From a virus (taxonomy: Duplodnaviria > Heunggongvirae > Uroviricota > Caudoviricetes), in the IMG/VR virus record IMGVR_UViG_2690316131_000017: DNA of 16,159 bases; one strand, given 5' to 3'. Both the position numbers and the translations under genes were made by a program. Numbering within the stretch: the stretch's first letter is position 1; each line of letters begins with the position of its first letter. Shown here piece by piece: positions 2,422 through 16,159 of the stretch. The notes beneath the pieces were generated by a model. The model searched no databases, had not been told where the DNA came from, and was given only the letters and a program-made list of their open reading frames with translations.

Positions 2422-4083
2422 TTACACCCCGCTAAATTCTTCCAGTTTCTGGCGGTGGCTGTCGCTTATATCAAAAGCAAAATCCTCATGCTCTGCCTGG
2501 AATGTACCAAACGCCATCAGCGCCGCCACGCTCGGGTCTATCTTGTTCGGTGATTTTTTCTTGTTCGGCTTGATATTGGCGTTCGCGTCACTCTGCATCA
2601 CGACGTTACTCATCGACCAGGACAACACCGGATCGCCACGATGCACAATCACCCTGCGGTTAACAAAAACTTCGAACGATTTCGCCGCCGGACTGAATCT
2701 GAGGTAGGTTTGCGGGAACGGCTCCACCTCAAAGCCTGCCCCCTGTAATTGCGTCCTGAGATGCGTGGCGTTCCACGTATCAAAGCCCACCAGCCTGATA
2801 TTAAATTTCTCCGCATCCTGCATGATGTCATCTCTGATCCGGTCGTAATCAATGCAGTCACCTGGCGTTGTGCGTATCCAGCCCGCTTTAGCCCACTGGC
2901 GATAGACAGCGCGGTTTTTATTGGCGGGGTTCTGTAGCTGGAACTCCGGCAGATAATGACGGGAAACCAGCATGATATTTTTACCGACCGGAAAGGCATA
3001 GCACACGCTGGAAATATCGCTGGTTGATGATAAGTCCAGCCCCGCGTAACACTCCTGCCCGTGTAAATCTTCCTCCGTGAACGTTCCGGCACACTCAGCC
3101 CATGCGCCGTTACCCATCCACGGGGTAGCCCCCTGGCACCAGATATTAAATCGCTTTGTCATCATCTCCACCCATTGCGACGGAATACCCCGCGCTTTCT
3201 GGATGGTTGAGGCCAGTTTTTCACGATCCACGGAAACATCGATGTTAGGGTTAGCCTTTATCCACATCGCCGGATCATCAACCTCGTTTTCGTCGTCCAG
3301 TTCGTAAATCAGTACAAAAATTGAATCGTTGACCTCTTCGCCGTCCAGGATCTGGCAGCAATAATCATAGTGCTGCTTACAGGCTGAAACGACGTTACTG
3401 CCCGATGTGGTAATGGCAAATAACAGCCCTTCGGGACGTGCGCCCATCCCCAGCTCAAGCGCGGAATAAACGCCGTTATCGGGGTGTAGGTGGTATTCGT
3501 CCACGATGGAAAGGCTTGGGTTTGTGCCCTCGATGGTTGCCGCTTTTGCTGCCAGCGGCTTTAACAGGCTGTTGCTTTTCGGGTGCATCACCTTGTGGGC
3601 CTGAATATTCACCCGCCTGCGTAACGGTCGGGATAAAAGGCACATCTGACGCGCATCATCAAAAACGATCCGCGCCTGGTCACGGCTCACCGCTGCGGTG
3701 TAAATATCCTGCTGCCCGTTCTCCATAATCAGAAACCAGTTAGCCAGAATCGCGGCGGTCGTGGATTTCGCATTTTTGCGCGGCACTTCGATAAAGGCGC
3801 TCGTGTATTTGCGCCGTCCGGTGGCCTTAACCTTAAAGCCGAGGATGCACGCAAAGGCGAACTGCTGCCACGGCTCCAGCTCAATGGGTCTGCCACGCAT
3901 CGGCCCTTTTACGTGCGGGCACACCCTGGAAAAGGCAATAAACCGCTCCACAACCTCACGATCGAACGTGTAAAGGGGGCTTTCAAGGTCCGAAAAGTAC
4001 CGTTTAACGGCCTGTTTCAGCCGTTTACAGGCCGGAATTTTGCCCGTTTTTACGTCTTCTGCGTACTTATTCCAGGCGGTCAA
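2422..4083 (-). CDS. terminase large subunit (HK97-type)
   Basis: 553 aa with an N-terminal ATPase P-loop-like segment (PRKNAKST) and a C-terminal nuclease-type region with acidic residues. The ORF-track start at 4083 is TTG with a GAGGA Shine-Dalgarno, overlapping the TerS 3' end by 17 nt. Confidence 0.88.
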   Translation of the reverse strand: MTAWNKYAEDVKTGKIPACKRLKQAVKRYFSDLESPLYTFDREVVERFIAFSRVCPHVKGPMRGRPIELEPWQQFAFACILGFKVKATGRRKYTSAFIEVPRKNAKSTTAAILANWFLIMENGQQDIYTAAVSRDQARIVFDDARQMCLLSRPLRRRVNIQAHKVMHPKSNSLLKPLAAKAATIEGTNPSLSIVDEYHLHPDNGVYSALELGMGARPEGLLFAITTSGSNVVSACKQHYDYCCQILDGEEVNDSIFVLIYELDDENEVDDPAMWIKANPNIDVSVDREKLASTIQKARGIPSQWVEMMTKRFNIWCQGATPWMGNGAWAECAGTFTEEDLHGQECYAGLDLSSTSDISSVCYAFPVGKNIMLVSRHYLPEFQLQNPANKNRAVYRQWAKAGWIRTTPGDCIDYDRIRDDIMQDAEKFNIRLVGFDTWNATHLRTQLQGAGFEVEPFPQTYLRFSPAAKSFEVFVNRRVIVHRGDPVLSWSMSNVVMQSDANANIKPNKKKSPNKIDPSVAALMAFGTFQAEHEDFAFDISDSHRQKLEEFSGV

Positions 4084-5449: not shown

Positions 5450-5784
5450 TTTTCCGCGCCCTCACGACAAAGAATTTCAAGGCGTGTCCTGGCGACATCC
5501 GGCAACGGCTGCCCGATGATATTCAGTACACGCCCCGCCAGCGGCCCCGTACTGACCTTTATCCGGCTGGTGGCGTTGATGTCCTTCCGGTACCGTATCC
5601 AGATCCTTACGGTACCAATCGCCAGCTCTGCGCCCGATGAAATGGCCTCCTTGCTGCTGATCATGTTCACGCTTGCCCAGAGTGTGTGACCGTCCTCCCA
5701 CGTTTCGAGTATTTCGCCCGTCATGGCTCTGGTCTGTTTCAGGGTCTGAATCGTTATCCTGTCACGCAGTCGCCCTATGTTCAT
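5446..5784 (-). CDS. phage head closure / head-tail adaptor protein
   Basis: Pattern RITIQ ... WASV ... IRYR ... ATSRI is typical of head-tail joining proteins. I prefer the ATG at 5784 (ATGA overlap with the portal stop) to the track start at 5826. Confidence 0.75.
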   Translation of the reverse strand: MNIGRLRDRITIQTLKQTRAMTGEILETWEDGHTLWASVNMISSKEAISSGAELAIGTVRIWIRYRKDINATSRIKVSTGPLAGRVLNIIGQPLPDVARTRLEILCREGAEK

Positions 5785-6992
5785 TCCGTTTTTTCTCCCT
5801 CGCTGATTTTTACTTCCTGTTTCCATGCCTGGCTGAACTCATCACCACCATCACGCGGTGACAGTCCTTCACGTTCGCGGGCTTCGTTCGGGCACATAAC
5901 GCCGGATTTGATGCCGCGCTCATAGGTGGCAAAGCGTTCGCCAGGTGTGGCCCGTAACAGGTCCGCGCTGTCAAACTCCACCTGATACCGGATACCAGGT
6001 ACAGGCGAGGCCACCAGCAGGGCGTTTTTTATCTGCTGCTCAAAGTTCGCCAGCCACGGGCGCATCGTCATGGTGAGAAATGCGCGGCTTGCCTCGCTGA
6101 AATTGCTGTAGGTGCTGTTGCTGTATTCCTGCAAAAAAATCGGCGAGACGTTGAACATTCGGGCGATGTCTTCAATGGTAAAGCGACGGGAGGCCAGCCA
6201 TTCAGCATCCTGATTACTCATGCCCAGCTGCTGATAGCTCATACCCCCTTCAAGGATGGGCGTTTTTCCGGCGTTTCTGGCCCCTTTGTAGCGTTCCAGT
6301 GCGGCTAATGCCTGTTTGCCCTTCACGCCGTCCAGCCATTCGCCTGACGTGATAACCCCTGCCGCCATCATGCCATCACGCATCACGCTCGCGCCGTGGC
6401 GTTGTTGGGCCAGCCCAAGCCCCAGCGATTCGCGGCAGATGGTTACAGGTGAGCGCCCCATAAAGCCGTCATCCGTGGAGTAACGAAGGTGAAGTACTTC
6501 CCACGGTAAATAGTTGTGGGTGTTTCCGGTGTAGGCGTCAGTGATGCAATAGCGCCAGTTGTGTTCTCCTGTCTGCTCCACGTTCACCGACTGCGGCGGG
6601 TAAGGATGTAAAGCCGCCGGAAAACCATCACGCCCCCACTGAATAACCGCATAAGCATTACCGTTTAACAGGCAGTGGCGGATCATCATTCGCTTAAACT
6701 AGTAGGGGGTTTGCCATGCGTTCGGGCGCTCGTTGAAGATGTGATCGACCGGATGAGAATCAAGCCACTCGCGGGCCTCCTTCCCCTTCTCATTGCGTAC
6801 CAGGTACAGGTAGCATGGCATAGTAGCCACCGCCTCAGAGATGACCGTAACGGCGTTCATGACGGCAGGCAGTGATTCCGCTGTCCCCGATGATACGTAC
6901 TCACCCGCCCCCGTGTTCGATGTGCCGGCCAGCGCCATAAATTCATCAAGCGTCATGCTGCGCTGCTCTTTTTTTCTTCTGAAAGGCCACAT
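5781..6992 (-). pseudogene. HK97-family portal protein interrupted by one in-frame TAG (codon 98, plus coordinates 6699-6701)
   Basis: Track ORFs 6699-6992 (97 aa, portal N-terminus AVMNAVTVISEAVATMPCYLY) and 5781-6689 (302 aa, portal core with FTIEDIARMFNVSP) are in the same frame, separated only by TAG and three sense codons. Combined length ~403 codons is portal-sized. Confidence 0.8.
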
Positions 6993-7605: not shown

Positions 7606-8763
7606 TTAATCGTCGTCCTGTGGCAGTTCCAGAATCTTGATCGCGTTCGAATCCACCACGCCACCGCCTAAATATTTCTGCGTGAAAATTTTGATGAAGC
7701 CCGGCTCTGTGAGGTTGTCCGGTCTGGTGCGAACACCTGTTTCGTGATCAACAATGTAGTAACCGCGTTTGAAGTCACCCAGGGCAATAACGTTATCAGG
7801 CATAAACTCCAGATATTCGACCGGAAGGCCCAGCAACGTATCAGGATCACCCGCCTGTAAACGGTCACGCCAGATGTAATCACCGTTCGCGTTCTTCACC
7901 TTCTGGAGTTTTGCCGCCGTCGTGGAGTTAACCACCCAGACCGCGTTTTTGCGGTATTTTTTACGTAATGCAAATTTCAGGTCGATCAGCGGGTCCGCAG
8001 ATGTCCACGCCAGAGATTCGGAAGGTTTAATTACCTGCAACGTACCAAAATCACGCTCTTTGTCGTTCTTCTCTGCACGGGGTACGGATAAAAAGCCTTT
8101 TGCTTTTTTGTCACCGTCGCCCACAACCAGATCGCTTTCTTCGGTTTCCGTGAAGGTGTCGCCAATCTCGCCCGTCAGCCATGAAAGGATGTCCACATCG
8201 GAAAAATCCACGATTTCCTGTGTGGTGCGCGGGTACGCATAGACCGGATACAGCTTAATGCTCACCTCGTTAATCTGCGGGGTGCTGGTCTGTTCGCGTG
8301 CCTTACCCTCTTCACCGTGGTTAACGGTCGCACCGCCAGCGGAAACAAGCTGCTTAAACTCGTTGCTGCTGATTTTCTTCACGGTACAGATGCGGCGCAT
8401 GGTGGATTCATCCGCCAGCATTCGCATGATTTCGGTGTTCAGTTCGGGGATAACGGTATAACCACCATCAGCGGGAACGCCTGTACTTAATGCGCGGGTT
8501 TCACCCGTCAGAATGTAGTTTCGTAGTTCTGCGGGGTCAGTGGTCTGACTGCTTTTACCTGGCTTGCTGCGCTCTTCGTCTGCAATGGCTTCAAGGCGGG
8601 AAATGTCTTTATCGAGGGATTCAGCTTTAGCGCGTAATTCGTCAAATTTTGCGCCCTCAGCATCGTTAAGACTGCGGTTTTCTTTTTCAGCGTTCTCCAG
8701 CATGTCGCGCATCTGATTTTTAATGGCGGTTTTCTGCTGGCGTAATTCGATTATTCTCGGCAT
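7606..8763 (-). CDS. major capsid protein, HK97 fold, with N-terminal coiled-coil delta (scaffold) domain
   Basis: N-terminal ~100 aa is heptad-rich and charged, followed by an HK97-like capsid body. No separate scaffold gene. First ATG at 8763; the track ORF extends to a TTG at 8808. Confidence 0.85.
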   Translation of the reverse strand: MPRIIELRQQKTAIKNQMRDMLENAEKENRSLNDAEGAKFDELRAKAESLDKDISRLEAIADEERSKPGKSSQTTDPAELRNYILTGETRALSTGVPADGGYTVIPELNTEIMRMLADESTMRRICTVKKISSNEFKQLVSAGGATVNHGEEGKAREQTSTPQINEVSIKLYPVYAYPRTTQEIVDFSDVDILSWLTGEIGDTFTETEESDLVVGDGDKKAKGFLSVPRAEKNDKERDFGTLQVIKPSESLAWTSADPLIDLKFALRKKYRKNAVWVVNSTTAAKLQKVKNANGDYIWRDRLQAGDPDTLLGLPVEYLEFMPDNVIALGDFKRGYYIVDHETGVRTRPDNLTEPGFIKIFTQKYLGGGVVDSNAIKILELPQDDD

Positions 8764-8978
8764 AAAAAAAAGTCCTGGGGTTAAGTAAGGAACTCCAGGA
8801 CGCGGCAAACACTCAACCGTTTTTCATAAGGAAATCAGCAATCGCACCGATCGTTTTCCCGCCTGGTAATGAATATTGGCGAGCACATTAACAGGCGGGA
8901 AAGTGGCCCCAGCGTCCTGGCACCACGGGCGAGAATAATCATGATTCAGTTCGGGTAAAATATGCCGATCCGCTCAGT

Positions 8979-9008
8979 GAACAACGTGGAACAACCACGA
9001 ACAAATAA
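8979..9008 (+). promoter_or_regulatory. three 10-bp-phased AACAA boxes overlapping the -35 of the packaging-operon promoter
   Basis: GAACAACGTG GAACAACCAC GAACAAATAA. On the minus strand the proximal box (TTGTTC) sits 16 bp upstream of TATTTT (8957-8962), about 190 bp upstream of the capsid ATG. Confidence 0.5.
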
Positions 9009-9018
9009 TTTACAAAAA

Positions 9019-9046
9019 ATAACAAAAAGCCGGATTGCTCCGGCTG
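9019..9046 (-). terminator. intrinsic terminator (stem AGCCGGA/TCCGGCT, loop TTGC, U-tract on minus strand)
   Basis: Perfect 7-bp stem followed on the minus-strand RNA by UUUUUGUUAUUUUUU; 19 bp downstream of the stop of gene 9065-9289. Confidence 0.75.
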
Positions 9047-9064
9047 TATGTGCTGTATGGGTGC

Positions 9065-9289
9065 TCAGTCTCTGATCCCTTTCAGAAATTCTATCAATGC
9101 ATCTGTCTGTTCAGGATTTACTGCCAGCATTTCACCGGATAGCGCGCAACGAACAAAACCATGATGATCCTTTTCAATCAGCGCCCCCGTTTCCAGAAAT
9201 GCGCGGTAATCAGTGATATTCATCGTCTCCATGTTGTCAGCATGGTATTTATCACGCTGTTTAAGTATCTCATCAAATTTCATCGGCAT
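9065..9289 (-). CDS. hypothetical protein (74 aa) in a terminator-flanked cassette
   Basis: ATG at 9289 with a GAGGAA Shine-Dalgarno 8 nt upstream (the track ORF runs further up to 9367). No family recognised. Confidence 0.5.
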   Translation of the reverse strand: MPMKFDEILKQRDKYHADNMETMNITDYRAFLETGALIEKDHHGFVRCALSGEMLAVNPEQTDALIEFLKGIRD

Positions 9290-9373
9290 TGCGTTTTCCT
9301 CTGTTGTGTCTGTTTGTTTCAGATAGTAACTATGCCGGACCGTGACGAAAAGCCAGTAGTGCTCCATACCGTT

Positions 9374-9399
9374 TCAAATGACGCAAAAAAAGCCGGATT
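9374..9399 (-). terminator. intrinsic terminator, near-identical copy of the one at 9019-9046
   Basis: Same 23-bp sequence aaaaagccggattgctccggctg; on the minus strand the stem-loop is followed by a U7 tract. Lies 32 bp downstream of ORF 9431-9592. Confidence 0.75.
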
Positions 9400-9430
9400 G
9401 CTCCGGCTGCGTGGTGTGGTTCTGATATTC

Positions 9431-9592
9431 CTACTCTGCTAATTTGCTCAGCCCCATGTCTGCGTAAGTGCGATTTACTGCATTTCTCAGGTCTGCGTAG
9501 TTCTCCGTTGGCGGCTCCGGTGTGCCCTTGCTGCTCTGTTTTACCTGCGGGTCGTCCACCAGCCGCCCGTAAGCGGCTATCTGTGCCGTCAT
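9431..9592 (-). CDS. hypothetical small protein (53 aa)
   Basis: Not in the ORF track (under 60 aa). ATG at 9590-9592 overlaps the stop of the upstream gene (ATGA); hand translation gives MTAQIAAYGRLVDDPQVKQSSKGTPEPPTENYADLRNAVNRTYADMGLSKLAE; TAG at 9431-9433. Confidence 0.35.
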   Translation of the reverse strand: MTAQIAAYGRLVDDPQVKQSSKGTPEPPTENYADLRNAVNRTYADMGLSKLAE

Positions 9593-9903
9593 AATTCCAC
9601 CTCTCCGGTTTTAACGTTGATGGTTGTTACCTGTTCCGCTTCGGCAATCTCCCGTTCTGTCAGCGTGGCAAAGTTTGCCGCCGCCGTGGTCATGAATGCG
9701 CTTATCAGGTCGGGATGTTCCTTCGCGTATCCTTCCCGCGTGTGGCGGTCTATCGTTCTGATTGCCACCTTTAAGGTGTGCTCAGTCATGTCTAACGCTT
9801 TATATTTTGGCTCTGTTCTGTCTCTGCGAATTTTGGTCATTTGTCGCCCCTGATTCATGTTTTCGGCTGGCATGTTTGTTAAGTGATTTTGATGTATGCG
9901 CAT
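9589..9903 (-). CDS. hypothetical protein (104 aa; alternative start at 9840 gives 83 aa)
   Basis: ATG at 9903 is preceded by a strong Shine-Dalgarno (GAGGGGGGTGA); an internal ATG at 9840 also has an AGGGG Shine-Dalgarno. First gene downstream of the ori. No family recognised. Confidence 0.5.
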   Translation of the reverse strand: MRIHQNHLTNMPAENMNQGRQMTKIRRDRTEPKYKALDMTEHTLKVAIRTIDRHTREGYAKEHPDLISAFMTTAAANFATLTEREIAEAEQVTTINVKTGEVEL

Positions 9904-9953
9904 TTATTTTCACCCCCCTCGTTTAAAAAGTTTTGAGTTGTGCCTCCCCCCCC

Positions 9954-10172
9954 TCTACCCATCTACCCGAATGCTCATCATGTCAGTAATGGCGCGGCTT
10001 TCAGCGGGTAGATAGCTTTTTTGGCTCCTCTACCTGCCGTCTACCCTGCTACCTGAAATTGATAAAATCAGGTAGAAGAGGTAGAGAGGTTTTATTAGCC
10101 TTCTACCTAGCCCTCCACCCACTTATCATGTTGAATAATATGCGTTTATCTCATTCAGGTAGATGGGGTAGA
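9954..10172. repeat. replication-origin iteron field: at least 11 copies of TCTACC(C/T) / GGTAGA in both orientations with AT-rich spacers
   Basis: Copies near 9954, 9962, 10006 (inverted), 10029, 10040, 10049, 10071 and 10080 (inverted), 10102, 10158 and 10166 (inverted). Immediately downstream of the primase stop at 10189; flanked by AT-rich tracts and a C8 homopolymer at 9946-9953. Confidence 0.65.
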
Positions 10173-10188
10173 GGGCTTTTACAAAAAA

Positions 10189-11943
10189 TTATAAAAACGC
10201 GTCACAATCATCCGTTGTAATTGCGTTGGTCTGCGTTACTCCCTTAACTTTCCGCGTAATATATTCATGTCCGTAAACTTTTGCCGCTGGCTTCATGGCC
10301 TTGCTGAACTCAGCCACGTTTAGCGGTTTGCTCCTGCCTGCGTATGCCATAAACGCCAGATAGACGCGGTAAAGGCTGTTCCTGGTCGTGTACTTCACTG
10401 AATCGCCACCGCCACCCATCATCAGGCCGCGCGCTTCCTCCAGAAAATTCAGGAACTGGCAAAACTCAATAACCGGATCCGTCTGTTGCTTTATTGCCAG
10501 TGCTTCATCACCGTCGCGCTGTTCCAGGAGTAAAGCCCGTGCCTTTTCAGGGTCGGCAAAGTTCGCCAGTAATCGGCGGATAATCACAGGGATTTCAGCC
10601 GCAATCTTTTCCGGTAGCTCCCTGTCTTTTTCGGCCTCACTGACGATATTGTCGAAACGGAAAATCACGCGACGACGTGCCACACCTCCGGCCCGTTCGG
10701 TGAATATCATCGGGTTGTTGTTGGTCGCCAGCACCACCGCCCTGATTACCGCCGTGAAACGCTTTTCATATTTCGGGTTAATTTCCACGGGGTCGCCGCC
10801 CGTGATTTTCTTGATGCCCGTTCCTTCGCCTGTATATTTCGGCTGGTCTGCCAGGACGATAAGACGACTCCCGACAACCTGCGCACGTCCACCAGCATCA
10901 TCAAGCGATGTCATCTCAGCGCTTACCGTGTTCTGTTTCCCTGCCAGAAGGCTGGCTATGTGTGTGAATGTACTTTTACCGCTCCCGCCGTCTCCGGTGG
11001 CCTCAATAAACATCTGCCAGTCGTACCGGTTCGCCATAATCATGTACAGCGCGGCACATATACGCATCATCTTGCGCGGGTCTTTTCCGGCTGCGTGCTC
11101 AAGCCATTTATGAAAGTTTGGCGCGTTGTCGCGGATATTCTCCCCTGGTGCTGGTGGCGTGTACTCAATGCCGTTATGCGTGGTGATCCAGTTCTCCGGC
11201 GTGTGCGGGGAAAATTCCCCCGTTTTCAGGTCAAGCACACCATTGGCGAACGGCAGCAAATCGCCGGACGGTTCGCCCATTGGTTCGGCAATAACTTTTA
11301 ACGCTTCCACGGTGTTATTGATTACGCGCTTGCTGAAAGTGGCCCTGTGCTCTGAATAGATCGCCACCATTTCGCGGCTCAGTGCCATTGTGCTGACCGG
11401 ACACCATACCCCGCCGCGCCATACGTGAACGATTTCACTTTCAGGATGTACGCAAACGCCATCAAAGCGCCCGGCAAGCAGCTGCGCGCGCTCACTGTCC
11501 GCCATCTGCGAAAGTTGCGCCTTTTGCTTTACCGGAAGCTCAATGACCAGACCATCAGAAAGATTCTGGCGCTCACGGGCCAGATATTCGCGCCAGTTCT
11601 CCACCTCCTGAACGTGCATTCCCTCAGGGTAAAAATTTGCATCCTGTACACCTGCCGCCGCCAGCTTCTGACCAATCGCCTTTATCATTACAGGCTCAAG
11701 ATGTCCGGCCCTGAATATGCGTACTGATTTTCGGCCTTCCGGCACAATTTGCAGCTTATCCAGTTCGGATAACTGCTGCTCCCCAAGCCACACAGGAGGC
11801 TCATTATCTCCGGCCATACGCGCGTCATGTTCCTGCCATTGTTTTGCGTGTGACCAGGCATCACTACCCGCAAAAATAATGACTTCTGTTTCTTTGTGTT
11901 TTATGCCGCGTGACTGCTGTTTTACGTTCGGTGCCAGTTTCAT
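10189..11943 (-). CDS. P4-family primase/helicase (replication initiator)
   Basis: 584 aa with a Walker A P-loop (GDGGSGKST) in a D5/P4-type helicase region preceded by a primase-like N-terminal domain. ATG at 11943 overlaps the upstream stop (ATGA). Adjacent to the iteron ori. Confidence 0.88.
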   Translation of the reverse strand: MKLAPNVKQQSRGIKHKETEVIIFAGSDAWSHAKQWQEHDARMAGDNEPPVWLGEQQLSELDKLQIVPEGRKSVRIFRAGHLEPVMIKAIGQKLAAAGVQDANFYPEGMHVQEVENWREYLARERQNLSDGLVIELPVKQKAQLSQMADSERAQLLAGRFDGVCVHPESEIVHVWRGGVWCPVSTMALSREMVAIYSEHRATFSKRVINNTVEALKVIAEPMGEPSGDLLPFANGVLDLKTGEFSPHTPENWITTHNGIEYTPPAPGENIRDNAPNFHKWLEHAAGKDPRKMMRICAALYMIMANRYDWQMFIEATGDGGSGKSTFTHIASLLAGKQNTVSAEMTSLDDAGGRAQVVGSRLIVLADQPKYTGEGTGIKKITGGDPVEINPKYEKRFTAVIRAVVLATNNNPMIFTERAGGVARRRVIFRFDNIVSEAEKDRELPEKIAAEIPVIIRRLLANFADPEKARALLLEQRDGDEALAIKQQTDPVIEFCQFLNFLEEARGLMMGGGGDSVKYTTRNSLYRVYLAFMAYAGRSKPLNVAEFSKAMKPAAKVYGHEYITRKVKGVTQTNAITTDDCDAFL

Positions 11944-12239
11944 TTTTTACCCCTGAATCCGTTAATCATGGTTTTCAGCTTCTGGATGTTTGCCCGTGCC
12001 CTGGCGTTGCTGGTGGGCACGTTATGCGGCGCGGTCTGTACCAGAGAAAAATCACGCCGGAACTGATAAACAGGCATCACGCAATCATATTCGTAACCTT
12101 CACGGCGGTAAGTTACGCACCGTCCCGCCACGCCCTTAATCATTACCGTGCCGCCGTACTGGTCGCGGTAAATATCGCCGCGCGTAAATTTAGGGTGAGT
12201 GTTGCCACTGGCAGTTAAGCCAGAATATTTAAGTTTCAT
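11940..12239 (-). CDS. hypothetical protein (99 aa)
   Basis: ATG at 12239 with a GGAGAA Shine-Dalgarno; translationally coupled to the primase. No family recognised. Confidence 0.55.
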   Translation of the reverse strand: MKLKYSGLTASGNTHPKFTRGDIYRDQYGGTVMIKGVAGRCVTYRREGYEYDCVMPVYQFRRDFSLVQTAPHNVPTSNARARANIQKLKTMINGFRGKK

Positions 12240-12936: not shown

Positions 12937-13159
12937 GGTGTACCCCTCCGCATTTTTTTTCGTTAGAAATAAGCGTTCTTCTTTCCTGTTCATCGCTCAG
13001 GAATACGCAGACCTCACCGCTAAGGCGTTTAAGTAAGCCGATGATTGCCCCTGATTCGCTGTCGGTCATCATGCCAGGGTAATCCTCTGCCAGTGCGCAA
13101 ATGACTTCGATTTGGTGGGCGCGTTCTGCTGCCTGTTGTAGTGTGATTTCCTGGCTCAT
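12926..13159 (-). CDS. hypothetical protein (77 aa from internal ATG; track ORF to 13225)
   Basis: ATG (MSQEIT...) overlaps the stop of the upstream gene (ATGA). Coordinates follow the ORF-track frame. Confidence 0.45.
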   Translation of the reverse strand: MSQEITLQQAAERAHQIEVICALAEDYPGMMTDSESGAIIGLLKRLSGEVCVFLSDEQERRTLISNEKKCGGVHHVQ

Positions 13160-13356
13160 AAGCCTACCCCCTGACGAATACGGGCGGCGAATACCATCAC
13201 GCAGCCAGCCGGAGATTGCTGGCATGCTTCCTGTTCGCTGGTGGCCTCAATGGTAATCACGCGCGGTTGTGCCGTGCTCAGGGCGATAAAACGCCAGATG
13301 TATTTATTCAGGTTGTGCGAGTCCCGCCCTTGCGGGTGTGTGGTATGATTTCTCAT
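13156..13356 (-). CDS. hypothetical protein (66 aa), first gene of the leftward early operon
   Basis: C-terminal 66 codons of the 387-aa track ORF. ATG at 13354-13356 with a GAGGT Shine-Dalgarno, directly downstream of the operator-bearing promoter. The rest of the long ORF is judged spurious. Confidence 0.4.
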   Translation of the reverse strand: MRNHTTHPQGRDSHNLNKYIWRFIALSTAQPRVITIEATSEQEACQQSPAGCVMVFAARIRQGVGL

Positions 13357-13453
13357 AGCTACCTCGATACTTTCGCTATCGTTGGTGGTTAGACGCCCTG
13401 CATGTGTTGCGAGCACTGCGGGGCGTTGCTTAATTTGAGTGACAAAACTCAAA

Positions 13454-13540
13454 CTGTGCGCACAGATTAAAATCATGTGTGCGCACATGTCAATACTTAA
13501 CATCTCATTTTTTTTGCTGTATTGTGTGCGCCCATAAAGT
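13454..13540. promoter_or_regulatory. divergent promoter/operator switch with TGTGCGCACA palindromes
   Basis: Perfect 12-bp palindrome CTGTGCGCACAG (13454-13465), 10-bp palindrome TGTGCGCACA (13478-13487) and a half-site TGTGCGC (about 13525-13531). Leftward promoter read on the minus strand: TTGACA (13488-13493), 16-bp spacer, TTTAAT (13466-13471). Candidate rightward promoter TTGCTG / TAAAGT. Confidence 0.55.
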
Positions 13541-13561
13541 CCATTTAAGTGAGGTGCATCA

Positions 13562-13759
13562 ATGTCTAGCGGTAACACAAACAACAAATCAGCAAAGAAA
13601 AATATTCGATTCCCGCATGAGCTTATAGATGGGATTGATGCCAGCGTTGAACAAGAAAAATTAACTAATCCTAGTGCTAATTTTTCCGCATGGGTCTTAG
13701 ATGCCTGTGGACGCAAATTAAAATATGAACAGCGCCGGAAGGCCAAAGAATCAGAATAA
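13562..13759 (+). CDS. small DNA-binding-like protein (65 aa), candidate island repressor; possibly YlcI/YnfO-like
   Basis: ATG at 13562 with a GTGAGGTG Shine-Dalgarno. The segment KKNIRFPHELIDGIDASVEQE ... NFSAWVLDACGRKL has a strand-helix-helix pattern suggestive of a ribbon-helix-helix fold. The YlcI/YnfO (DUF3950) resemblance is from memory and unverified. Confidence 0.55.
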   Translation: MSSGNTNNKSAKKNIRFPHELIDGIDASVEQEKLTNPSANFSAWVLDACGRKLKYEQRRKAKESE

Positions 13760-13816
13760 TCACTATCAGCGCCGTGGTGTGAGGAACTACGGCGCATTTC
13801 TTTACAGGAGTAGACA

Positions 13817-14002
13817 ATGAACAACGAAGAATTACGGGAAATCGCATTATCCATACTTGAAAGACAGGTAGAAAAAAAATTAAGAGAAATGGATGAAATG
13901 CCTGACCATGAACAGGAAGCAAGGCCAAAAAGATTTGCCCTTGAGGATTTTCTTAAAAATTGCCCAAGAAAGATGAGATCGTGGCGTTGTTGTCCGCCCT
14001 GA
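13817..14002 (+). CDS. hypothetical protein (61 aa)
   Basis: ATG at 13817 with a GGAG Shine-Dalgarno; co-directional with the upstream gene and followed by a strong terminator. Confidence 0.5.
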   Translation: MNNEELREIALSILERQVEKKLREMDEMPDHEQEARPKRFALEDFLKNCPRKMRSWRCCPP

Positions 14003-14079
14003 TGACAGATTTGCCAACCAGCCAAAAATGTGGCATCGTTGTCGATACATAGTGTAATCAACATGTATATCATATTTTT

Positions 14080-14106
14080 GCGACCATCATAGGTCGCATT
14101 TTTTTT
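14080..14106 (+). terminator. intrinsic terminator (GCGACC-atcata-GGTCGC followed by T8)
   Basis: Perfect 6-bp GC-rich stem followed by an 8-T run; about 80 bp downstream of the plus-strand gene pair. Confidence 0.7.
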
Positions 14107-14376
14107 GCCTGTAATCCGGCAATTGTGGCGCTTCTTCACACAGTTGATATAATTCCAATGCTCATATTTATTTTTTGTGCAGCAGGTTAATCGTTCACAA
14201 AGGCGCTCAGGTAACTGGGCGCTTTTTGTTATGCCTGAAAAACCCCAATTTTGTTGTTTTTCAGTTTCACCAGGGCGAACGAATCCCCGCCTACGTTCTG
14301 GCGTATATTCAATCTTCATGGTTATAGCTCTGTGTTCAGATGATTGATGTGTGGCGGCTGCGTGCCGCCAGCGTGA

Positions 14377-14565
14377 TTAATGAACTGCCTTGCAGCTATC
14401 CTTCCAGGCCAGAACCTCGGATAAAGACCAGCCAACGGAACGACCGCCAAGTTTACGACGTGATGGGAATTGTCCGGCCTTTTCCAGGCGGTAGCGACAC
14501 GTACGGCTAAGGCCGGTTAGTTTTTCGCATTCTTTTTCACGTATAAACCGATCAGTGCTTAACAC
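14377..14565 (-). CDS. alpA: AlpA-family transcriptional regulator / excisionase-like protein
   Basis: 62 aa; the motif LTGLSRTCRYRLEKAGQFPSRRKLGGRSVGWSLSEVLAW matches the AlpA/excisionase winged-helix family. GTG start at 14565 with an AAGGGGG Shine-Dalgarno 5 nt upstream. Confidence 0.8.
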   Translation of the reverse strand: MLSTDRFIREKECEKLTGLSRTCRYRLEKAGQFPSRRKLGGRSVGWSLSEVLAWKDSCKAVH

Positions 14566-14929: not shown

Positions 14930-16159
14930 TTATTTTCTTCTGGCTACTGGTAGCGTGGTTACGTTTTCATGTGTTCCCGCCAGTATCCCTAACCGCTCCG
15001 TCCACATATCCAGCGCATTGCGTTTAGCATCCAGATAACGGGAATGATTATAAACTCGCTGCATTCCTGGCATCTGGTGGCCTGTAAGCTGCTCCACGAC
15101 GTGAGAATCCACGCCTAAATCGTTCAGCATCGTTGTAAAGGTGCGCCGGATGTCATGTAGTGACCAGTGAGGGTGATTTAGCCTCCTGTGCGCTAATCTG
15201 CCGTACTGCGACACGCTTGTTTCCTGTTTCACTTCCCCCAGCAATAAACCCGTGTGCCTGTTCTGCTCCACCAGCTGCGTGACGAACGGCAGTATTGCTT
15301 CCGGTATGGGCCGGAATATTGCCACCTTCGTTTTGCTGTGTTCTTTCGGCACGGTCCAGAGCATTTCGGTAAAATCCCACTCGCTGATCTCCGATAACCT
15401 CAGTTCTACCGTCCGGCATCCGAACACAATCAGGAGGCGGATTAGCGCGATGTAGTAGGGGGAGAATATTTTTTTGTCCAGTGCCTGCAATAATTCGCCA
15501 AGTTCTTTGTTGCTTAAGACACGCTCGCTTATATCCGGTTTTTTCCCAACGTCCGCCACACTCATATCATCAAGAACGTTGCTGATTGCATAGCGCCGCT
15601 TCCGGCAGAACTTAAGCGCCTGCTTGCATGTCTGTAGCAGGAACCCGGCGGAAACAGGGGCTTGCTTTGCCACCCGATCAAAACAGGCCAGCCAGTGCCG
15701 TAGCTCGCATTTATCCAGCGGCATAGGGCCAATGTGCTGTATTACGTGATTATTTAGCCGCTTTTTCAGTGGGTCATAATCCACACGGTTTTCCTTTGCG
15801 TACGACTCAAGCCAGTAGGTGAGCGTATCACCAACCGTTACCGGCTTTAACGCTTCCTGTACGGTGTAATTCATCTCATGACGTGGATTTTTCCCCTCAG
15901 CCAGCCATGCGCGACACTGGGCGGCTTTTTCCCTGGCTGATTTCAGACTCAGATCAGGATAATTTCCCAGCTTAATGCGTTCCGGTGGTGCCCCCCTTCC
16001 CGTTCCGGCCCTGTAAGTGAAATACCAGGTTAAAAGGCCGCTGGTTGAATGCCTGACGCTCAGATTTCCACCGTCATTAAGAAAGGCTGTTTTTTGGGCG
16101 GGTGTGCCGTTGATTTTCCTTAGCAGTGTATCGCTCAGTTTGTTAAGTGCTCTGCTCAT
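14930..16159 (-). CDS. tyrosine integrase with N-terminal arm-binding (DUF4102-like) domain
   Basis: 409 aa. N-terminal arm-binding-type pattern (LSDTLLRKI ... LNDGGNLSV ... WYFTYR ... IKLGNYPDLSLKSAREKA) and a C-terminal catalytic region with R..HxxR..Y-type residues (HDIRRTF ... HSRY). The ATG is the last 3 nt of the window, so the upstream region and att site are not visible. Confidence 0.9.
   Translation of the reverse strand: MSRALNKLSDTLLRKINGTPAQKTAFLNDGGNLSVRHSTSGLLTWYFTYRAGTGRGAPPERIKLGNYPDLSLKSAREKAAQCRAWLAEGKNPRHEMNYTVQEALKPVTVGDTLTYWLESYAKENRVDYDPLKKRLNNHVIQHIGPMPLDKCELRHWLACFDRVAKQAPVSAGFLLQTCKQALKFCRKRRYAISNVLDDMSVADVGKKPDISERVLSNKELGELLQALDKKIFSPYYIALIRLLIVFGCRTVELRLSEISEWDFTEMLWTVPKEHSKTKVAIFRPIPEAILPFVTQLVEQNRHTGLLLGEVKQETSVSQYGRLAHRRLNHPHWSLHDIRRTFTTMLNDLGVDSHVVEQLTGHQMPGMQRVYNHSRYLDAKRNALDMWTERLGILAGTHENVTTLPVARRK

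What the first reader, a model, noticed from the sequence alone, without database searches (positions are those of the whole stretch)
9019..9903. Two small-gene cassettes each closed by the same 23-bp terminator
Between the ori and the capsid promoter, genes 9589-9903 plus 9431-9592 are followed by the terminator at 9374-9399, and gene 9065-9289 (with its own Shine-Dalgarno) is followed by an almost identical terminator at 9019-9046. Duplicated terminators bracketing a lone gene look like a moron-style accessory slot, the usual place for cargo such as defence or superinfection-exclusion genes. The identical repeats could also mediate cassette exchange.
Basis: partly seen in the sequence, partly recalled or inferred. 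Interest (0 to 1): 0.5.

Follow-up and report, generated by a model that had tools for sequence, protein, structure and literature searches.

The report
Duplicated terminators flank optional satellite gene
In this E. coli phage satellite, two copies of an ordinary transcription terminator flank one small gene of unknown function, and related satellites either have or lack exactly that gene plus one terminator copy; it is a tidy example of modular evolution, not a slot for defence cargo.

Summary
The repeat is real. AAAAAGCCGGATTGCTCCGGCTG occurs at 9024-9046 and 9387-9409, and none is expected by chance. Each copy is a minus-strand intrinsic-terminator-like hairpin: a 7-bp stem, a GCAA loop and a U-tract about 20 nt after a stop codon.

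The window is a capsid-forming PICI of the EcCIEDL933/OI-51 type, next to phoQ.

Gene calls need correcting:
- The "104-aa" gene is an 83-aa phrog_1231 protein.
- The 53-aa gene is a deletion remnant that fuses the start of an ssb-like gene to the end of a perC/pchE gene.
- The 74-aa gene (p74, phrog_1957) has no recognisable function or fold.

In 77 related islands the interval takes only a few discrete states. p74 plus one terminator (363 bp) is present or absent, with junctions inside the hairpin. No other cargo was ever found between the terminators. The hairpin is also the point where different upstream and packaging modules are joined.

p74 homologues occur only in satellites, across several enterobacterial genera, usually just upstream of the capsid genes.

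The "cassette" idea is therefore partly right. The "defence/moron cargo slot" idea is not supported. Termination itself is untested. Interest is low to moderate.

The parts
9024..9046 (-). T2: downstream copy of the 23-bp repeat. Intrinsic-terminator-like hairpin (stem 9028-9034/9039-9045, loop GCAA) followed on the minus strand by UUUUGUUAUUUUUU (to about 9010). It closes the p74 gene and lies just upstream of the leader of the packaging operon.
   Evidence: conserved in relatives
9384..9409 (-). T1: upstream copy of the repeat (exact repeat 9387-9409, stem 9391-9397/9402-9408, loop GCAA) with its U-tract, encoded by the seven A's at 9385-9391, the last of which is also the first stem base. 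It closes the replication/early gene block.
   Evidence: in most relatives the loop is GAAA
9065..9289 (-). p74: a 74-aa acidic protein (pI 5.0), phrog_1957, function unknown. Shine-Dalgarno GAGGA at 9297-9301. The longer 100-aa ORF reaching 9367 runs into the T1 tail and is unlikely to be real.
   Evidence: (variable sites by codon position 5/8/20)
9047..9409 (-). The 363-bp indel unit (p74, its 97-nt upstream spacer and one terminator copy) that is present or absent among related islands. It can equally be written as 9024-9386.
9431..9592 (-). 53-aa ORF that is an in-frame deletion remnant. The first ~25 codons of the satellite ssb-like gene are fused to the last ~30 codons of a perC/pchE-family gene. 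About 504 bp are lost relative to O157 islands, with CACCG microhomology at the joint.
9589..9840 (-). 83-aa conserved small protein (phrog_1231, function unknown), the first gene after the origin.
   Evidence: annotated as 83 aa in L001-L004
9944..10180 (.). Replication origin iterons (GGTAGA-type repeats), downstream of the D5-type primase gene 10189-11943.
8764..9023 (-). Leader/promoter region of the packaging operon. It holds an invariant TGTAAAT (9014-9008), a candidate promoter TTTACC-N16-TATTCT (8959-8932) and a long inverted repeat (8855-8902).
   Evidence: inference only

Best explanation
The two 23-bp repeats are copies of one Rho-independent terminator in a capsid-forming PICI. T1 ends the AlpA-side replication/early gene block, which here ends in an 83-aa gene plus a dead ssb'-'pchE remnant. 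T2 ends the small gene p74 and shields the packaging-operon leader from upstream transcription.

Because the two terminators are direct repeats 363 bp apart, they bound a unit made of p74 plus one terminator. Among related islands that unit is either present or precisely absent. The most likely process is recombination or replication slippage between the repeats, or between terminators of two co-resident islands. The same hairpin is also the joint at which different perC alleles and different packaging modules (HK97-type and lambda-type) are combined.

p74 is probably not imported cargo. It belongs to a satellite-only protein family that usually sits at the replication/packaging junction. My best guess is that it is a small acidic protein-binding accessory factor of the satellite life cycle that E. 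coli islands can do without.

Shown: the repeat, the hairpin anatomy, the discrete states, the junctions and the family distribution. Inferred: termination activity, the recombination mechanism, the direction of change (loss or gain) and the role of p74.
For: Island identity: int, AlpA (PF05930), DUF4222/RgdR, D5 primase, iterons, HK97 capsid, protease, portal, connectors, HNH, TerS and TerL are present. The closest relative is annotated the same way. The OI-51/EcCIEDL933 literature is PMC3378721 and bioRxiv 10.1101/2022.09.08.507074.

Terminator anatomy and significance. Both hairpins are conserved in relatives. The loops seen were GCAA, GAAA and GUAA, all of GNRA form, while the stems stay constant in most loci.

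Indel: strain KKo003 has perC, then one hairpin, then the capsid leader. Its left flank matches the T2 side and its right flank matches the T1 side. In 77 classified IMG/VR loci the distance from ssb to the capsid gene falls into discrete classes: no perC (8), perC with one terminator (34), and perC-T1-p74-T2 (35). These classes occur in both HK97 and lambda-type backgrounds.

Joint: most combinations of upstream flank (two perC alleles, or p74) and downstream flank (p74 spacer, HK97 leader, lambda-type leader) occur with the hairpin as the joint.

E. coli complete genomes: perC is in 728 genomes (824 places) and the p74 unit is in 539 genomes (592 places), always at >=80% coverage.

p74: coding constraint is visible, with variable sites 5/8/20 by codon position and 17 codons with only synonymous differences against 9 with amino-acid changes. 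Homologues occur in Klebsiella, Citrobacter, Enterobacter, Salmonella, Xenorhabdus and Arsenophonus. In Klebsiella/Enterobacteriaceae and Xenorhabdus cf-PICIs they follow the hyp83-like gene directly and lie about 220 nt before the capsid gene. In other Klebsiella and Citrobacter islands they are the first gene after the replication gene and origin. None is found in 50,697 phage records.
Against: No transcript data: termination at T1 and T2 is inferred from sequence only.

The hairpin core is a generic sequence found in more than 120 unrelated genomes of many phyla. Identity of the core alone therefore does not prove common descent.

The closest p74-minus/p74-plus pairs are only 95-99% identical in their flanks. 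Recent, repeated deletion is not demonstrated, and general recombination between islands could produce the same mosaic.

In the E. coli sample p74 was never seen without perC. That nesting fits stepwise addition at the operon end as well as it fits deletion.

In Klebsiella cf-PICIs there is no terminator between the p74 homologue and the capsid leader, so the terminators are not a general requirement of cf-PICI regulation.

The proposed role of p74 rests only on its position and charge. The model (pLDDT 85) matches no known fold.
Confidence: 0.62

Rival explanations
1. One reading: T1-p74-T2 is a moron-style accessory slot. It would be an independent transcription unit carrying exchangeable cargo such as a defence or superinfection-exclusion gene, with the repeats mediating cassette exchange.
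For: The gene is optional and bounded by terminator repeats. It has its own Shine-Dalgarno. Its G+C is lower than the island's (44.9% against 50.6%). In Klebsiella and Citrobacter islands, a reverse-strand gene of 170-272 aa does sit between the p74 homologue and the capsid module, so this junction can hold cargo in other lineages.
Against: Only one occupant was ever seen in 77 loci. No sigma-70-like promoter lies between T1 and p74. There is no PADLOC, Pfam, PDB or fold match. The p74 family is conserved in satellites of several genera, in line with the upstream genes in Klebsiella/Enterobacteriaceae and Xenorhabdus cf-PICIs, which is not how exchangeable cargo behaves.
Confidence: 0.15
2. 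The inserted accessory unit is ssb-perC(pchE)-T1, not p74-T2. On this view the ancestral layout was hyp83-p74-(T)-capsid, as in other genera. The host-directed regulator pchE arrived with its own terminator, which created the duplicate, and p74-less islands arose later.
For: In Klebsiella/Enterobacteriaceae and Xenorhabdus cf-PICIs, hyp83-like and p74-like genes are adjacent, with no ssb or perC. PerC genes are variably present in Gram-negative PICIs (PMC6092414, PMC11773190). pchE has its own promoter activity and host targets in O157 (PMC7369912).
Against: There is no repeat or terminator between hyp83 and ssb to delimit such an insertion (the two genes overlap). No E. coli island in the sample has p74 without perC. 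E. coli p74 is only 35-47% identical to the homologues from other genera, so the layouts diverged long ago.
Confidence: 0.2
3. The two hairpins are independent, convergent terminators. On this view their 23-bp identity is coincidental or due to gene conversion, and has nothing to do with the p74 polymorphism.
For: The 20-mer core is a generic terminator sequence found in many phyla. In most relatives T1 and T2 differ in the loop (GAAA against GCAA). A minority, including this window, have identical loops.
Against: No match is expected by chance in the window. The p74-minus junctions fall inside the hairpin, with a T1-type flank on one side and a T2-type flank on the other.
Confidence: 0.05
4. 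The hairpins are site-specific recombination sites of an integron-like cassette system, with the hairpin acting as an attC analogue.
For: Only the superficial 'gene plus hairpin repeat' layout.
Against: The hairpin is 18 nt with a perfect stem and a U-tract, not an attC of 57-141 bp. The only recombinase is a P4-type integrase at the island end (14930-16159). There is one cassette type only.
Confidence: 0.02

Closest known systems
Capsid-forming PICI EcCIEDL933 (O-island 51 / CP-933C / Sp7 of E. coli O157:H7)
   Same: Same gene order: int, alpA, rgdR (DUF4222), primase, ori, hyp83, (ssb, pchE), p74, then HK97-type capsid, protease, portal, connectors, HNH, TerS and TerL. Same phoQ-side location. 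O157 relatives carry both terminators and p74 (PMC3378721; 10.1101/2022.09.08.507074).
   Different: This copy has lost most of ssb and pchE through a ~504-bp deletion. It carries an in-frame stop in the portal gene. It has a D5-type primase where ATCC 35150 has a DUF927 primase. Its T1 loop equals its T2 loop. The papers I read do not describe the terminators or p74.
Phage 'morons' and mosaic module boundaries in lambdoid phages (my own knowledge: Juhala et al. 2000; Hendrix et al. 2000)
   Same: An optional small gene with its own terminator lies between conserved neighbours and has a lower G+C. A short conserved sequence marks the point where modules are exchanged.
   Different: No recognisable promoter of its own. 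The gene is a conserved satellite family member rather than foreign cargo. Only one occupant is known.
RecA-independent deletion between short direct repeats (my own knowledge: Bzymek and Lovett 2001)
   Same: Direct repeats of about 23-30 bp, a few hundred bp apart, each containing a palindrome. The product retains one repeat copy, exactly as seen in the p74-minus islands.
   Different: No deletion has been observed directly here. Homologous exchange between two islands would give the same product.
PerC/Pch regulators carried by Gram-negative PICIs (pchE = ECs1588)
   Same: The 3' end of the 53-aa ORF is homologous to perC. The full-length gene sits at this place in relatives and is followed by T1.
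   Different: Only profile positions 50-77 of 90 survive, fused to an ssb N-terminus, so the product is very probably non-functional.

Membership tests
Rho-independent (intrinsic) terminator | G+C-rich stem-loop immediately followed by a U-tract on the transcribed strand | tested here: met
   Both copies have a 7-bp stem (5 G-C) and a GCAA loop. T1 is followed by six U's and T2 by UUUUGUUAUU. They fold at -14.1 and -15.7 kcal/mol, z about -3.4.
Rho-independent (intrinsic) terminator | Lies shortly downstream of a stop codon, in the orientation of the gene | tested here: met
   19 nt after the p74 stop and 22 nt after the stop of ORF 9431-9592.
Rho-independent (intrinsic) terminator | RNA 3' ends or termination activity at the site | not testable with these tools
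   No transcript data available. Term-seq or in vitro transcription is needed.
Moron (autonomous accessory transcription unit in a phage or satellite) | Own promoter upstream of the gene | tested here: not met
   No sigma-70-like site on the minus strand between 9290 and 9386 at the scan's threshold. Activator-dependent or weak promoters are not excluded.
Moron (autonomous accessory transcription unit in a phage or satellite) | Own terminator, and present or absent between neighbours that are otherwise adjacent | tested here: met
Moron (autonomous accessory transcription unit in a phage or satellite) | Foreign origin or varied cargo at the same site | tested here: not met
   Single occupant in 77 loci. 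The family is restricted to satellites. G+C is only mildly lower.
Anti-phage defence gene | Similarity to a known or candidate defence family | tested here: not met
   No PADLOC hit for p74 or hyp83. No Pfam, PDB or fold match. A new kind of defence protein cannot be excluded.
Integron gene cassette | attC site (57-141 bp imperfect palindrome), IntI integrase and diverse cassettes | tested here: not met
   18-nt perfect hairpin with a U-tract, a single cassette type, and only a P4-type integrase at the island end.
Capsid-forming PICI (cf-PICI) | int, alpA, primase/rep with an iteron ori, plus capsid, protease, portal, connectors, HNH, TerS and TerL; no tail or lysis genes; about 15 kb | tested here: met
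   Pfam hits, iterons, and the same architecture in L001/L002. Helper-dependent induction is not testable here. The portal carries a stop codon.
PerC/Pch transcriptional regulator | Full-length PerC domain (PF06069, 90 positions) | tested here: not met
   The 53-aa ORF scores 22.9 bits (cut-off 22.6) over profile positions 50-77 only. Its N-terminus is ssb-derived.

The most novel reading that the evidence does not exclude
p74 (phrog_1957) defines a protein family restricted to satellites, with no detectable fold relatives. In PICIs of at least six enterobacterial genera it marks the replication/packaging junction. It could be an undescribed factor that controls the switch to packaging or interferes with the helper phage. 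In E. coli islands it would be isolated between two terminators, so that it is expressed only by read-through when the island is induced. A related reading is that the terminator hairpin is the preferred crossover point through which classical PICIs and capsid-forming PICIs swap packaging modules.
Probability: 0.2. Interest if true: 0.5.

Novelty: new member of a known kind. Interest (0 to 1): 0.25.

Why it matters
The finding pins down where, at base-pair resolution, the shared backbone of E. coli PICIs is joined to alternative packaging modules. It also gives a concrete route by which a small gene is lost or gained: recombination at a repeated terminator. It identifies p74 as a satellite-specific family of unknown function whose position makes it a sensible target for knock-outs in the EcCIEDL933/HK106 system. 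It corrects three gene calls. It shows that this copy of the island is decaying, since pchE is destroyed and the portal gene is interrupted. None of this changes how satellites or terminators are understood.

Tried and rejected
- I checked whether p74 is RgdR, the small regulator said to be present in all E. coli PICIs. It is not. RgdR is the 99-aa DUF4222 protein at 11940-12239.
- I checked whether p74 is Rpp. It is not. RppA is 144 aa and is gene c1503.
- Pfam, NCBIfam and PADLOC gave nothing for p74. PHROGs gave only an unknown-function family.
- A PDB profile search gave only a marginal hit to N.BspD6I (E = 0.005 over 40 residues), which I treat as noise.
- Rfam found nothing in 8700-10300 above noise.
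- I considered that PICI AlpA might be a processive antiterminator like Pseudomonas aeruginosa AlpA, which would read through T1 and T2. The window protein is PF05930 and matches PDB 8c3t, an entry described only as an AlpA family phage regulatory protein. It did not match any other PDB chain, so no P. aeruginosa AlpA-RNA polymerase complex entry was recovered, and the paper reports no homology to other antiterminators. The idea rests on a shared name and remains untested.
It showed only that the core is a generic sequence.
- The search for very recent p74-plus/p74-minus sister islands found flank identities of 95-99% at best, so it is not decisive. Three loci in that script were misclassified and I ignored them.
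- One apparently larger interval (L066, 1226 nt) was an artefact of a split capsid hit.

Full report
OBSERVATION

The window holds an exact 23-bp direct repeat, AAAAAGCCGGATTGCTCCGGCTG, at 9024-9046 and 9387-9409. These are the only two matches even with three mismatches allowed, and none is expected in 200 shuffles. The consensus scan called both as minus-strand terminator-like sites. Each has a 7-bp stem with 5 G-C pairs, a 4-nt loop and a T-run. As RNA they fold at -14.1 and -15.7 kcal/mol, z about -3.4. They begin 19 and 22 nt after the stop codons of ORFs 9065-9289 and 9431-9592. Otherwise the description holds.

WHAT THE WINDOW IS

Pfam hits define a capsid-forming phage-inducible chromosomal island (cf-PICI), read on the minus strand:
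- integrase (14930-16159)
- AlpA (14377-14565)
- a DUF4222 protein (11940-12239)
- D5-type primase (10189-11943)
- iterons (9944-10180)
- HK97-type capsid, protease, portal, head completion, connector, HNH, TerS and TerL

Position 1-1461 encodes PhoQ, so the island sits at the OI-51/Sp7 site. The literature calls this element CP-933C/OI-51/Sp7 (PMC3378721) and EcCIEDL933 (bioRxiv 10.1101/2022.09.08.507074). The DUF4222 protein is RgdR (99 aa). The perC homologue of OI-51 is pchE.

GENE CALLS IN THE INTERVAL

The 104-aa ORF matches phrog_1231 (83 positions) only from its residue 22. Relatives with other origins lack the 21-codon extension, and the conserved protein starts MT..RRDRTE. The gene is therefore 9589-9840.

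The 53-aa ORF matches an ssb family over residues 1-25 and PerC-type families over residues 19-50. Aligned to an O157 island, its DNA matches the first ~80 nt of the 136-aa ssb-like gene and then the last ~85 nt of perC. The two matches overlap by CACCG, and about 504 bp are missing between them. It is a deletion remnant.

The 74-aa ORF (p74) matches phrog_1957 end to end, a family of unknown function.

TERMINATORS IN RELATIVES

Five aligned islands keep both hairpins. These include islands with DUF927 or RepA-type replication genes, and one with a lambda-type capsid module. In most relatives the T1 loop is GAAA and the T2 loop is GCAA. A third allele, GUAA, occurs in islands with a single terminator. 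All three are GNRA tetraloops, while the stem is constant in most loci. A few loci carry single stem mismatches. Variation confined in this way fits selection on an RNA hairpin.

THE INTERVAL ACROSS RELATIVES

Parts of the interval occur in 1,521 of 5,426 complete E. coli genomes. pchE-type perC occurs in 728 genomes (824 places). The p74 unit occurs in 539 genomes (592 places), always nearly complete.

I classified 80 IMG/VR loci anchored on the ssb-like gene. In 77 of them the distance from ssb to the capsid gene falls into discrete classes:
- ssb only: 8 loci
- ssb-perC-T: 34 loci
- ssb-perC-T1-p74-T2: 35 loci

The last two classes occur with both HK97-type and lambda-type packaging modules, and with or without an extra 101-aa gene. 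Nothing other than p74 was ever found between T1 and T2.

In strain KKo003 a single hairpin carries the T2-side flank on one side and the T1-side flank (the perC 3' end) on the other. A tabulation of all hairpin flanks shows that most combinations occur. The upstream flank can be one of two perC alleles or the p74 3' end. The downstream flank can be the p74 spacer, the HK97 leader or the lambda-type leader. The hairpin is the joint in each case.

The 363-bp unit is therefore a presence/absence polymorphism bounded by the repeat, and the hairpin coincides with the module boundary. Homology between HK97-type and lambda-type islands stops at the T-tract of T2.

P74

Close homologues are all from E. 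coli. An exhaustive HMMER search found about 20 distant ones, at ~35-45% identity and 70-90 aa. A profile search added Klebsiella, Citrobacter, Enterobacter, Salmonella, Xenorhabdus and Arsenophonus.

Their contexts are satellites:
- In Klebsiella/Enterobacteriaceae and Xenorhabdus cf-PICIs the homologue follows the hyp83-like gene by 9-19 nt and precedes the capsid gene by about 220 nt.
- In other Klebsiella and Citrobacter islands it is the first gene after the replication gene and origin, and a reverse-strand gene of 170-272 aa lies between it and the capsid module.
- In Arsenophonus it follows TerL on a 16-kb circular record.

No homologue exists in 50,697 phage records. Polymorphism in the E. 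coli genes is concentrated at third codon positions (5/8/20), with 17 codons showing only synonymous differences against 9 with amino-acid changes. It is therefore a real coding gene.

INTERPRETATION

Shown:
- two copies of a terminator-like hairpin
- a conserved small gene between them
- a precise indel of gene plus one hairpin
- the hairpin as a mosaic joint
- p74 as a satellite-only family

Inferred:
- The hairpins terminate transcription. T1 would close the early/replication block, which in O157 includes pchE, a gene with its own measurable promoter activity (PMC7369912). T2 would insulate the packaging leader.
- The indel arises by recombination or slippage between the repeats.
- p74 acts in the satellite life cycle rather than being cargo.

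The direction of change is open. In the E. coli sample p74 never occurs without perC, which fits stepwise addition at the operon end as well as it fits deletion. In Klebsiella cf-PICIs there is no terminator between the p74 homologue and the capsid leader, so the terminators are a lineage feature and not a cf-PICI requirement.

COMPARISON AND NOVELTY

The element type, pchE and RgdR are all known. Intrinsic terminators, terminator-bounded optional genes and conserved boundary sequences at module joints are familiar from lambdoid phage genomics (my own knowledge). The terminators, the 363-bp polymorphism and the p74 family are not mentioned in the PICI papers I read. I therefore rate this a new member of a known kind, of modest interest.

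The idea that the repeats bound an exchangeable unit is supported.

DEAD ENDS

These are listed under Tried and rejected. They cover the RgdR and Rpp checks, the AlpA-antiterminator idea (a shared name only), the Rfam scan, the genome-wide hairpin scan (generic sequence) and the inconclusive search for very recent sister islands.

Noticed in passing
window 5781-6992 (-): The portal gene carries one in-frame stop codon (at 6699-6701), which splits it into ORFs of 97 and 302 aa. The closest relative has an intact 403-aa portal. Together with the ssb-pchE deletion, this suggests that this island copy is defective.
   Followed up: partly
window 8855-8902 (-); L130 6363-6411; L138 6234-6292; L136 6415-6442: A long hairpin or inverted repeat (10-16 bp stem, -21 to -25 kcal/mol) lies in the leader of the capsid operon in cf-PICIs of E. 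coli, Klebsiella, Citrobacter and Xenorhabdus. The sequence differs in each, so the structure is conserved in position and could be regulatory.
   Followed up: partly
window 9008-9014 and 8932-8959 (-): An invariant TGTAAAT box lies just downstream of T2. A candidate promoter TTTACC-N16-TATTCT keeps its position across four genera of cf-PICIs. It falls below the promoter scan's threshold.
   Followed up: no
window 11940-12239 (-): A 99-aa DUF4222 protein with RGD at residues 20-22. It is a homologue of RgdR (ECs1581), the OI-51 regulator of type III secretion and motility.
   Followed up: partly
L133 6294-6806 (-), L138 5316-6134 (-), L139 5316-6089 (-): In Klebsiella and Citrobacter PICIs, a reverse-strand gene of 170-272 aa sits between the p74 homologue and the capsid module. 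It has no significant Pfam or PADLOC match (only a sub-threshold AbrB-like hit for the 170-aa protein). This is a genuine variable cargo position in those lineages.
   Followed up: partly
L140/L141 (Arsenophonus nasoniae CP123539.1, CP038627.1); Klebsiella CP018459.1: Records of 16-17 kb deposited as non-mobilizable plasmids carry a p74 homologue. The Arsenophonus records also carry a full cf-PICI-like capsid/terminase set and a primase. They look like circular or extrachromosomal satellites.
   Followed up: no
L001 9521-9634 (-), equivalent to window ~9330-9443: RefSeq annotates a 37-aa 'trigger factor' CDS lying over terminator T1. This is almost certainly a spurious call.
   Followed up: no
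L003 3733-3748; L114 about 4062-4078; L007 6916-6931: The same hairpin core recurs after the lambda-type capsid sub-module. In islands that lack an intact perC (L114, L007) it recurs directly after the full-length or truncated ssb gene. It therefore ends several different modules in this satellite family.
   Followed up: partly
window 13156-14319 (-): The 387-aa ORF has no family match. It overlaps plus-strand DUF3950/YlcI-like small genes (13562-13759, 13817-14002) that are annotated in relatives, so it is probably not a real gene.
   Followed up: no
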